NCBI RefSeq assembly: GCF_030013595.1
Contig: NZ_CP122768.1
DNA from: Escherichia coli
GTDB taxonomy: Bacteria; Pseudomonadota; Gammaproteobacteria; Enterobacterales; Enterobacteriaceae
Strand: one strand, 5' to 3'
Length of the DNA stretch: 64,000 bases
In this document: one piece after another, positions 53,427-55,397 of the stretch
How positions within the stretch are numbered: position 1 is the first letter of the stretch
Layout: each line of letters starts with the position of its first letter
The notes under the pieces: model-generated
The model's input: only the letters and a program-made list of their open reading frames with translations
What the model was told of the DNA's origin: nothing
The model's database searches: none
Translations under genes and position numbers: made by a program

Positions 53427-55397
53427 ATGAGACTCAAAAAACGTTATCTCTGCACAGCATTATCACTTGCCTTTACCCAGCAGGCCGTAGCGGCTCAGGA
53501 GAGTGACACGCTGACCGTATGGTCCAGTCCGGTATCATCGACGACGACCACCGTTCTCGATCAACCCACCATGAAGGCCCTGGATAAACAGAATGTCGCT
53601 CAGGCATTAAGTGTCGTCCCCGGCGTGGTGCTGCAAAAGTCAGGCAGCCGCAACGAAGAACAGGTAAAAGTTCGTGGCTTTGATAGTCGGCAGGTGCCGG
53701 TCTATTTCGACGGTGTGCCCATTTATGTTCCCTATGACGGCAACCTCGATCTGGCGCGGATTCTGACCAACAATCTGGGGGCAGTCGAAGTTTCCAAAGG
53801 GTATTCGTCGCTGCTTCAGGGGCCTAATCAGATGGGCGGAGCCATTAATATCACCACCCAGAAGCCAACAAAACCTCTGGAAGCAAATCTGGGATATCGC
53901 CAGGGATGGAGCCGTAGCTAGGACAATGCCTACGATATGCATGCTTCATTTGCCGCCAGCAGCGATCTGGGGTATTTGCAAGTCAGCGGTAGCCAGCTAA
54001 AGCAGGATTTTCTCGGCCTGCCGCATGGTGTAAATAATGATATTGCAGGCAAACACGGTAAGATGATTAATTCATCGGCTGATGATAAACGCGGCATTGT
54101 GAAGCTCGGTTTTACACCACGCGAAAACGATGAATACACATTGACTTACATTAAGCAGGATGGTGAAAAAGATAACCCGCCATACAGTGGAAATAGTGGT
54201 CAAAAATCACGCTACTGGCAGTGGCCAGAGTATGACAAAGAAAGTTTTTATTATCAGGGAACGACCCAACTAAACGATCGTTTTACCCTGAAAAGTCGGC
54301 TGTATCGCGACACCTTTGAAAATACGCTGATGATGTACAACTCGCTGGCTGATTTAAAAAATAAAAAAGGCAGCTACAGCCATTATTCCGATTACAGCGA
54401 CGGTGCCGGGTTACAACTGGCAGCCGATGTGCGTGAAAACGATCTGCTGTCGTTTGCCGTTAACTGGAAAGATGACGTACACCGGGAAAAAGGTGCGCCG
54501 CACGCCGCTTACGATCGCTATGAAGATCGTACCTGGTCGCTCGCCAGTGAATATCAATGGGCTGCTGCCGATAATGTCGACGTCGTGGCTGGAATCAGCT
54601 ATGACTGGCGCGATAGCGTAGAAGCGAAAAAACATGAGAAAGATGGAAGCATCACCCATTATGACGACAACAATCAGTCAGCTTTTAACTGGCAGGTGAT
54701 GGGGAAATACCACTTTGCCAATGAAGACACGCTGGCGCTTTCGTACTATGACCGCACACGCTTTCCGACGCTGAAAGAACGCTATACCACGTCCAAACCT
54801 GCGTATAACCAGATAGCGATTGTTAACCCGCAGCTCAAACCGGAACGCGCGCGCGGGGTGGATTTAACCTGGAATGGTGCCTTCACGCACGACTGGGGGT
54901 TTGAGGTCAGCGTTTACTATAACCGGGTGAGTGATGCCATCCTCTCGCACAATATCGATGCCGATACCATTCAAAATCAGAACAGCGGCACGGTGGATTA
55001 CAGCGGTCTGGATGCCGGTATTAAGGGGAAAATCAGCAATATACTGGATGTAGGATTGAGCTACGCCCTGATCCACGCTGATGCCAAACGCAAAGACATC
55101 GGCAAGATAACCGATCTGCCAACGCAGACAATGACCGCATGGATGACTCTCAAACCGTGGGAGCCGTTAAACGTAACGCTGTCGGAAGAGGCGCGTTCCT
55201 CCAGCTACAGCAACAGTGACGGTTCACAAAAAGCCGCCGGTTTTGCGGTGACCCACATTCGAGCCGATTACACCTTAGGTCATGGCTTCAGCGTCAATGC
55301 GTCGGTCAATAACCTGTTTGATACCAAATATGCCTACAGTGAAGGGTTTATTGAAGAAGGTCGCAATTTCTGGGCAGGTATCGAGTATACGTTCTGA
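53427..55397 (+). pseudogene. TonB-dependent outer-membrane receptor interrupted by in-frame TAG at 53919-53921
   Basis: Signal peptide MRLKKRYLCTALSLAFTQQAVAAQE, TonB box DTLTVW, plug then beta-barrel ending in aromatic (GIEYTF); two ORF-track pieces 53406-53921 and 53937-55397 are in the same frame, separated only by one amber codon. Confidence 0.8.

What the first reader, a model, noticed from the sequence alone, without database searches (positions are those of the whole stretch)
53916..53924. Single in-frame amber codon splits the TonB-dependent receptor
The two ORF-track fragments 53406-53921 and 53937-55397 are in the same reading frame. The only interruption is TAG at 53919-53921 (...GYRQGWSRS-TAG-DNAYDMHASF...), at about codon 165 near the plug/barrel junction. 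Everything else in the operon is intact, so this looks like a recent point-nonsense inactivation, or a sequencing or strain artefact (for example an amber-suppressor background). Loss of the receptor while keeping the inner-membrane importer is a recognisable phage/colicin-resistance pattern.
Basis: seen in the sequence. Interest (0 to 1): 0.55.

Follow-up and report, generated by a model that had tools for sequence, protein, structure and literature searches.

The report
Amber-stopped receptor at methylation hotspot
One C-to-T change at a methylated CCAGG site has put a stop codon into an accessory E. coli outer-membrane receptor gene; it is an ordinary, recent pseudogene, and the same change has arisen independently in at least four E. 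coli lineages.

Summary
TAG at 53919-53921 is codon 165 of a 656-codon TonB-dependent receptor gene (53427-55397), the last gene of a six-gene accessory island between treA and ymgE. It is the only interruption.

The ancestral codon is CAG (Gln). A 33-mer carrying CAG matches 2123 complete E. coli genomes; the same 33-mer carrying TAG matches none.

The allele is not an assembly error. A 6.5-kb contig identical to the window was assembled from other sequencing runs, with 22 similar places. The same TAG also sits on at least three other haplotypes, each 0-3 further differences in 5.5 kb from a CAG-bearing genome.

The mutated base is the internal C of CCAGG, the Dcm methylation site. That is the classic 5-methylcytosine deamination hotspot that gave the lacI amber hotspots. 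The gene's other three amber-capable Dcm sites (Q159, W370, W482) also carry real TAG alleles in public data.

No supF is present: tyrT and tyrV in the window keep anticodon GTA, and prfA is intact. Selection for receptor loss (phage or colicin) is untested.

Verdict: a real, recent, hotspot-driven pseudogene of a known kind. Low interest.

The parts
53427..55397 (+). TonB-dependent outer-membrane receptor gene, 656 codons, inactivated by one amber codon. It is the last gene of the island.
   Evidence: Plug 39-139, barrel 223-630. Intact 1971-nt orthologues.
53919..53921 (+). TAG at codon 165. The ancestral codon is CAG (Gln).
   Evidence: A 33-mer with TAG matches 0 complete genomes; with CAG it matches 2123.
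53918..53922 (+). CTAGG, a former Dcm site (CCAGG). The mutated base 53919 is the internal, methylated cytosine. This is the only CTAGG in the 64-kb window.
53900..53904 (+). Neighbouring intact CCAGG site whose CAG is codon 159. It is amber-capable, and TAG alleles exist in other strains.
54532..54536 (+). CCTGG site overlapping TGG codon 370. It is amber-capable by G-to-A, and TAG alleles exist in other strains.
54868..54872 (+). CCTGG site overlapping TGG codon 482. It is amber-capable; a TAG allele is seen in L051 together with Q159 amber.
53427..53918 (+). Residual N-terminal ORF of 164 aa: signal peptide, TonB box, the whole plug, and the start of the barrel.
   Evidence: The exact protein is on record as STE02195.1.
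53937..55397 (+). Residual C-terminal ORF of 486 aa starting at Met170. It is barrel only, with no signal peptide, so it could not be exported even if translation restarted.
   Evidence: The export consequence is inference.
48983..53401 (+). The five upstream island genes, all intact: substrate-binding protein, FecCD-type permease, ATPase, SAM-dependent methyltransferase, ModD.
7460..7664 (+). tyrT and tyrV tRNA-Tyr genes, both with anticodon GTA, so there is no supF allele.
28161..29243 (-). prfA (release factor 1, which reads UAG), an intact 360-codon ORF.

Best explanation
The receptor gene is a recent, lineage-specific pseudogene. A C-to-T transition changed Gln165 (CAG) to amber (TAG).

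The mutated cytosine is the internal C of CCAGG, the base that E. coli Dcm methylates at position 5. Deamination of 5-methylcytosine gives thymine. If very-short-patch repair (Vsr) misses the resulting T:G mismatch, the change is fixed as CTAGG.

Translation now stops after the signal peptide, TonB box, plug and first barrel strand. No barrel can be assembled, so the receptor is lost (inferred). The gene is last in its operon and is followed by the convergent ymgE, so no downstream gene is affected.

Because this is a mutational hotspot in a dispensable accessory gene, the same allele has arisen repeatedly in unrelated E. coli lineages.

Shown here: the stop, the ancestral codon, the Dcm context, the reality of the allele, and its recurrence. 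Inferred: methylation of this site in this strain, deamination as the chemical cause, and loss of function.
For: Stop and frame.

Ancestral codon: CAG in three genomes. The CAG 33-mer is in 2123 complete genomes and the TAG 33-mer in none.

Context: the ancestral sequence is CCAGG with the mutated base at the internal C.

Real allele:
- The exact 164-aa product is on record in NCBI and Logan.
- Contig L006 is 100% identical to the window over 6495 bases, with 22 similar places.

Recurrence, from 5.5-kb haplotype distances:
- Window: 4 differences from CAG-bearing HCP5S3_I2.
- L007: 1 difference in 6495 bases from 118UI and M7424, and that one is the C/T itself.
- L012: 1 difference from JJ1886.
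- L015: 2 differences from AUSMDU00002545.
- The four TAG lineages (counting L011 and L012, 4 differences apart, as one) are 51-112 differences from one another.

Other hotspots: the gene's other three amber-capable Dcm sites all carry real TAG alleles. Q159 is seen on at least 3 backgrounds, W370 on several, and W482 once.

Controls: eight non-Dcm transition-nonsense sites gave at most one real origin per mutation (Q135, Q145, Q244 one each; W161 one TAG and one TGA; Q131, Q185, Q190 and Q193 none).

Literature: the lacI amber hotspots are the second C of CCAGG (Coulondre 1978, as reviewed in PMC12606429). VSP repair acts at CTWGG/CCWGG (PMC2715241).

No supF, and prfA intact.
Against: - dcm and vsr lie outside the window, and no methylation data exist, so methylation of this site in this strain is assumed.
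- The hotspot-versus-control comparison is small and not phylogeny-corrected.
- Raw contig counts were unusable. Most exact-length 'truncated proteins' at control sites turned out to be contig-end artefacts.
- Some W370 examples are metagenome contigs that could be chimeric.
- Loss of function was not measured. Low-level near-cognate readthrough of UAG, which would insert Gln and restore the wild-type protein, cannot be excluded.
Confidence: 0.85

Rival explanations
1. The TAG is a sequencing or assembly error in this one genome, and the gene is really intact.
For: No complete RefSeq E. coli genome has the TAG. The window also has a homopolymer-length difference in chaC that could be a long-read error.
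Against: An identical 6.5-kb TAG haplotype was assembled from other sequencing runs, with 22 similar places. The exact 164-aa and 486-aa products are deposited under several NCBI accessions. A substitution is also not the typical long-read error.
Confidence: 0.02
2. The mutation is the same, but it persists and recurs because loss of the receptor is selected (escape from a phage, colicin or host antibody that uses it). The Dcm hotspot only supplies the variant.
For: Many independent loss-of-function alleles exist in this gene:
- Ambers at codons 135, 145, 159, 161, 165, 244, 370 and 482.
- A -1 frameshift allele on 46 contigs (P0009).
- A +1 in the G-run in HCP5S3_I2.
- A 16-bp deletion causing a frameshift in Shigella flexneri.

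The best solved-structure match is Cir, a colicin receptor.
Against: - No comparison with the loss rate of the neighbouring island genes could be made.
- The island's methyltransferase is also a pseudogene in AUSMDU00002545 and L015.
- The island is absent from about 60% of complete genomes.
- Both facts fit relaxed constraint.
- No phage or colicin is known for this receptor.
Confidence: 0.2
3. One old TAG allele has been moved between lineages by homologous recombination, rather than arising repeatedly.
For: E. coli recombines, and the same allele on several backgrounds is what transfer would also produce.
Against: - L007 differs from 118UI only at this base in 6495 bases. L012 differs from JJ1886 only at this base in 5.5 kb.
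- The window and L007 haplotypes differ at 53786 and 53993, so an imported tract would have to be under about 207 bp.
- From a window-type donor into the JJ1886 background, the tract would have to start after 53887, 32 bp upstream.
- Three other Dcm sites in the gene show the same pattern.
Confidence: 0.05
4. The gene is still functional because the amber is read through by a suppressor tRNA, or the two halves work as separate plug and barrel proteins.
For: By my recollection, separately expressed FhuA cork and barrel can reconstitute activity when both carry signal sequences. Near-cognate tRNA-Gln reading of UAG would restore the wild-type residue.
Against: - tyrT and tyrV are wild type and prfA is intact.
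- The downstream fragment starts at Met170 with no signal peptide.
- 2123 complete genomes encode one uninterrupted protein.
- No lineage shows a conserved split architecture.
Confidence: 0.03

Closest known systems
lacI amber hotspots at Dcm sites (Coulondre, Miller, Farabaugh and Gilbert 1978)
   Same: A CAG Gln codon embedded in CCAGG. A C-to-T change at the second (5-methylated) C gives TAG. The change recurs far more often than at other nonsense-capable codons (PMC12606429).
   Different: Here it is seen in natural isolates and metagenomes rather than in a laboratory mutant collection. It lies in an accessory receptor gene, and no rate was measured.
Very-short-patch (Vsr) repair and CTAG depletion in E. 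coli
   Same: The product CTAGG is the substrate context of VSP repair (PMC2715241). The window holds only one CTAGG and one CCTAG, against 187 CCWGG. One of the 44 substitutions versus the closest relative is a CTTGG-to-CCTGG gain in the relative.
   Different: Vsr activity in this strain is not testable from the window. Whether the amber reverts through VSP is speculation.
Pseudogenised TonB-dependent receptors in E. coli and Shigella (ordinary gene decay of accessory uptake systems)
   Same: A point lesion in a non-essential outer-membrane receptor while the cognate ABC importer remains. S. flexneri and the pig isolate HCP5S3_I2 carry independent frameshifts in the same gene.
   Different: The lesion here falls on a defined mutational hotspot and is demonstrably recurrent.
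Cir, BtuB and FecA, structurally solved TonB-dependent transporters
   Same: Plug plus 22-strand-barrel family. The best sequence matches to solved structures are Cir (E 1e-8) and BtuB. It has a TonB box and a C-terminal Phe.
   Different: The matches are remote. It scores below every NCBIfam cut-off (126.7 bits against 223.5 for the siderophore subfamily), so the substrate is unknown. Its partners, ModD and a SAM methyltransferase, are unusual.

Membership tests
TonB-dependent outer-membrane receptor | N-terminal Plug domain (PF07715) followed by a TonB-dependent beta-barrel (PF00593) | tested here: met
   On the repaired protein, Plug matches 39-139 (E 7e-21) and the barrel matches 223-630 (E 1e-33). 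In the window as it stands, the two domains fall in separate ORFs.
TonB-dependent outer-membrane receptor | Signal peptide, TonB box near the N-terminus, C-terminal aromatic residue | tested here: met
   Read from the translation: MRLKKRYLCTALSLAFTQQAVA|AQE, then DTLTVWS, and a C-terminal ...GIEYTF. This was judged by eye; no predictor was run.
TonB-dependent outer-membrane receptor | Assignment to a substrate-specific subfamily (siderophore, heme, B12, copper) | tested here: not met
   All NCBIfam hits fall below their curated cut-offs: siderophore 126.7 against 223.5, heme 126.1 against 316.9, B12 79.2 against 599.7.
Nonsense pseudogene | An in-frame stop inside an ORF that is uninterrupted, with a sense codon there, in orthologues | tested here: met
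   (CAG in 2123 complete genomes).
Nonsense pseudogene | The allele is real rather than an assembly error | tested here: met
   An identical haplotype is found in independent assemblies, and the products are deposited.
Nonsense pseudogene | The protein is actually absent or non-functional | not testable with these tools
   Needs proteomics or a transport, phage or colicin assay.
Dcm 5-methylcytosine deamination hotspot mutation | The ancestral sequence is CCWGG and the change is C-to-T at the internal C (or G-to-A opposite it) | tested here: met
   CCAGG to CTAGG at 53918-53922.
Dcm 5-methylcytosine deamination hotspot mutation | Independent recurrence of the identical change | tested here: met
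   At least 4 backgrounds, each 0-3 other differences from a CAG genome and 51-112 differences from the other TAG lineages.
Dcm 5-methylcytosine deamination hotspot mutation | Recurrence exceeds that at non-Dcm sites of the same mutation class | tested here: inconclusive
   - Dcm sites: Q165 at least 4 origins, Q159 at least 3, W370 at least 2, W482 1.
- Eight control sites: 0-1 origin per mutation.
- The sample is small and partly read, and no tree-based count was made.
Dcm 5-methylcytosine deamination hotspot mutation | The site is methylated by Dcm in this lineage | not testable with these tools
   dcm and vsr are outside the window, and there are no methylation data.
Amber-suppressor strain (supF, supE etc.) | A tRNA gene with a CUA anticodon | tested here: not met
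   The only tRNAs in the window, tyrT and tyrV (the supF locus), have GTA. glnV and the others are outside the window and untested.
Naturally split plug and barrel receptor | Orthologues end at this point, and the downstream protein has its own start and export signal | tested here: not met
   Orthologues are single 656-aa proteins. The downstream ORF starts at Met170 without a signal peptide.

The most novel reading that the evidence does not exclude
The in-frame CCAGG/CCTGG codons of this receptor act as a slow, two-way switch. Deamination of 5-methylcytosine turns the receptor off (CCAGG to CTAGG). Vsr-driven T-to-C conversion at CTAGG can turn it back on. Lineages would then toggle an outer-membrane receptor under phage, colicin or immune pressure, making this a methylation-based contingency locus.

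My evidence does not exclude this but gives it no specific support. Amber-capable Dcm sites are the norm: 74 of 146 in the other genes of the window. Four of five in this gene is therefore not enriched (P = 0.2). No revertant was identified.
Probability: 0.05. Interest if true: 0.55.

Novelty: new member of a known kind. Interest (0 to 1): 0.2.

Why it matters
On its own it matters little. One accessory uptake receptor of unknown substrate is switched off in one E. coli lineage.

Its modest value is as a clean natural replicate of the textbook lacI result. In wild E. coli, the same Gln-to-amber change at a Dcm site has arisen at least four times, and all four amber-capable Dcm sites of the gene carry amber alleles in public data.

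For annotation, it warns that identical nonsense alleles in different lineages need not mean shared ancestry or selection.

It also gave a methodological caution. Exact-length 'truncated proteins' in very large protein collections are mostly contig-end artefacts. Each has to be checked at the DNA level.

Tried and rejected
1. Contig counts from exact look-ups of predicted truncated products, as a hotspot-versus-control test. Rejected as a measure. Inspection showed that most control hits, and some hotspot hits, are proteins cut by contig ends. Only DNA-verified stops and haplotype backgrounds were used. A Fisher test I ran on presence or absence is therefore not cited as evidence.

2. Enrichment of amber-capable Dcm sites in this gene. 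It has 4 of 5, against a background of 51% in 42 other CDSs, P = 0.2. No enrichment.

3. 'Three Dcm-site deaminations in this lineage'. Three of the 44 substitutions versus the closest relative do lie on 5mC positions (P = 0.002). Polarity checks then changed the picture. The window's T at 38962 is the common allele (3843 genomes), so the relative gained that site. The A at 59575 is shared with 37 genomes including CFT073. Only 53919 is a clear window-lineage C-to-T.

4. A regulatory RNA or a Fur box for the island. There was no Rfam match at E up to 1 over 48400-55900, and no Fur consensus within 3 mismatches.

5. Literature on the ModD / methyltransferase / receptor island in E. coli. Two full-text searches found nothing specific.

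6. Structure prediction. Not run, because the Pfam limits and the BtuB alignment sufficed to place residue 165.

Full report
**Observation.** The window reads ...CGT AGC TAG GAC AAT..., with TAG at 53919-53921. Translating 53427-55397 in one frame gives a 656-residue protein with a single internal stop at codon 165.

**What the gene is.**
- The window is E. coli chromosome, running adhE, tyrT-tyrV, nar, prfA, dha, treA ... ymgE, ycgR, cvrA.
- Six genes lie between treA and ymgE: a substrate-binding protein, a FecCD-type permease, an ABC ATPase, a class I SAM methyltransferase, ModD, and a TonB-dependent receptor.
- This island is present in 2138 of 5426 complete E. coli genomes. In the complete genomes inspected where the receptor is not itself a pseudogene, it is an uninterrupted 1971-nt CDS.
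- Pfam on the repaired protein finds Plug at 39-139 and the barrel at 223-630.
- The protein has a signal peptide, a TonB-box-like DTLTVWS and a C-terminal Phe (read by eye).
- Every substrate-specific NCBIfam model scores below its cut-off, so the substrate is unknown.
- The alignment to BtuB places residue 165 about a dozen residues past the end of the plug, after the first barrel strand (BtuB domain limits are from my memory).
- The truncated product is therefore signal peptide, plug and one strand. The downstream ORF starts at Met170 with no export signal.
- The receptor is the last gene of the operon and is followed by the convergent ymgE, so there is no polar effect (inference).

**Ancestral state and rarity.** Three orthologues have CAG (Gln) at codon 165. 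I used a 33-mer centred on the variable base, so any 28-base megablast seed must span that base. With TAG it matches no complete genome. The same 33-mer with CAG matches 2123 genomes. The change is a C-to-T transition.

**Is it real?** Yes.
- The exact 164-aa N-terminal product and the 486-aa C-terminal product are in the public protein collection under NCBI accessions (for example STE02195.1). They occur on contigs up to 3.4 Mb.
- Contig L006, from another sequencing run, is 100% identical to the window over 6495 bases, with 22 similar places.
- A one-off assembly error is excluded.

**Recent?** Yes. The closest complete genome is HCP5S3_I2 (pig, UK). It differs at 13 positions in 20 kb, and by 44 substitutions plus 3 indels over 64 kb, and it has CAG. 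Within the receptor, the window differs from NRZ14408 only at the amber and at one synonymous site. No secondary decay has accumulated.

**Mechanism.** The ancestral context is AG**CCAGG**AC. The mutated base is the internal C of CCAGG, the cytosine that Dcm methylates. Deamination of 5-methylcytosine gives T. These are the classic lacI amber hotspots, GC-to-AT at the second C of CCAGG (Coulondre et al. 1978, as reviewed in PMC12606429). VSP repair by Vsr normally corrects the T:G intermediate in the CTWGG/CCWGG context (PMC2715241). The resulting CTAGG is the only CTAGG in the 64-kb window, against 187 CCWGG sites.

**Recurrence of the codon-165 amber.** The same TAG occurs on at least four haplotype backgrounds. 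Distances are over 5.5 kb.

| TAG haplotype | Nearest CAG-bearing genome | Differences |
|---|---|---|
| Window | HCP5S3_I2 | 4 |
| L007 (contig seen in 14 samples) | 118UI, M7424 | 1 in 6495 bases, the C/T itself |
| L012 | JJ1886 | 1 |
| L015 | AUSMDU00002545 | 2 |

The four TAG lineages (counting L011 and L012, 4 differences apart, as one) differ from one another by 51-112 positions. Transfer by recombination would need tracts shorter than about 200 bp that carry no flanking SNP. Independent mutation is the parsimonious reading.

**The gene's other Dcm sites.** The gene has five Dcm sites. Four can give an amber: Q159, Q165, W370 and W482. I predicted the other three truncations and found them at the DNA level.
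- Q159 TAG occurs on at least three backgrounds (L019, L020, L052, L051).
- W370 TAG occurs in L023, L024 and L056-L060.
- W482 TAG occurs in L051, together with Q159 TAG.

**Controls.** Eight non-Dcm transition-nonsense sites gave the following.
- Q135, Q145 and Q244: one verified origin each.
- W161: one TAG and one TGA.
- Q131, Q185, Q190 and Q193: none.

This favours the hotspot model, but the sample is small and not tree-based, so I rate that particular test inconclusive.

**A caution learned on the way.** Exact look-ups of truncated products return many hits that are simply proteins cut by contig ends in short metagenome contigs. Contig counts are therefore not evidence. Only stops read in the DNA were used.

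**Suppressor and readthrough.** The supF locus lies in this window. tyrT and tyrV both have anticodon GTA. prfA (RF1) and prmC are intact. Other suppressor loci are outside the window. Near-cognate reading of UAG by tRNA-Gln would restore the wild-type residue at a low level. That point rests on my own knowledge and was not tested.

**Selection for loss?** The receptor carries many independent lesions.
- The ambers listed above.
- A -1 frameshift allele on 46 contigs (P0009).
- A +1 in a G5 run in HCP5S3_I2.
- A 16-bp deletion causing a frameshift in Shigella flexneri.

Three facts weaken the case for selection. The island's methyltransferase is also a pseudogene in AUSMDU00002545 and L015. 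The island is missing from about 60% of genomes. Amber-capable Dcm sites are not enriched in the receptor: 4 of 5 against a 51% background, P = 0.2. All 42 other CDSs checked in the window are intact, even though they hold 74 amber-capable Dcm sites. That pattern fits purifying selection elsewhere and tolerance of loss here. The phage/colicin idea remains untested.

**Comparison with the known.** This works like, and meets the testable criteria of, a Dcm-site deamination amber as in lacI. It is an ordinary nonsense pseudogene of an accessory TonB-dependent receptor. Methylation of the site in this lineage and loss of the protein could not be tested. It is not a suppressor-strain artefact by the one test available, and it is not a natural split receptor.

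**Verdict.** The finding is real and correctly observed. It is explained by a known mutational hotspot. It is recurrent in nature but biologically ordinary. Interest is low (0.2). It is a new instance of a known kind.

Noticed in passing
window 21584-22318 (- strand), indel at about 21638: chaC has one base fewer in an A/T run than the closest relative. The last ~18 codons change...SVKNCWRRIIRMVCYGRDSPE instead of the relative's ...SVKKLLAENYPDGVLRPGFA. This is either a real frameshift or a homopolymer sequencing error in one of the two assemblies.
   Followed up: partly
L005 9697 (equivalent to window 53776): The closest complete genomes (pig isolates HCP5S3_I2 and LCP30S3_I5) carry CAG at codon 165. 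HCP5S3_I2 has an extra G in a G5 run 143 bp upstream, and RefSeq annotates its receptor as a frameshifted pseudogene. This is either an independent lesion or a homopolymer error.
   Followed up: partly
L008 about 2939-2943 (equivalent to window 53860-53879): Shigella flexneri carries a 16-bp deletion in the same receptor, giving overlapping 185-aa and 486-aa ORFs. Several S. flexneri assemblies hold 486-aa fragments in the same 90% cluster.
   Followed up: partly
window 51844 (methyltransferase gene 51750-52550): The window and HCP5S3_I2 lack 12 bp, in frame, that every other haplotype compared here (NRZ14408, JJ1886, AUSMDU00002545, L007, S. flexneri L008) has. The SAM methyltransferase is 266 aa rather than 270 aa. 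In AUSMDU00002545 and L015 the same gene has an internal stop.
   Followed up: partly
window 38962 (ycgV) and 59575 (cvrA): Two more of the 44 substitutions versus the closest relative sit on the methylated position of a CCWGG. At 38962 the relative gained CCTGG from the common CTTGG, the direction expected of VSP repair. At 59575 the window has CCTAG, a synonymous change shared with 37 complete genomes including CFT073.
   Followed up: yes
window about 7646-8205, downstream of tyrV: The ~178-bp repeats after tyrV (annotated RtT sRNA in the relative) differ in copy number. The window has one more unit than HCP5S3_I2, which shifts coordinates by 178 bases.
   Followed up: no
L051 (Logan SRR8845303), receptor codons 159 and 482: One lineage carries two Dcm-site ambers in the same receptor gene, Q159 TAG and W482 TAG. 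This indicates continued decay after the first hit.
   Followed up: partly
E. coli genome search: A few matches to the receptor region lie on records labelled as plasmids (8-12 places). I did not examine whether these are true plasmid copies or mislabelled replicons.
   Followed up: no
L013, L014, L016-L018, L025, L026: Several short metagenome and Logan contigs end within 0-2 bases of the Dcm sites at codons 165 and 370. I cannot tell whether this reflects assembly-graph branching at within-sample C/T polymorphism or merely the density of contig ends.
   Followed up: no
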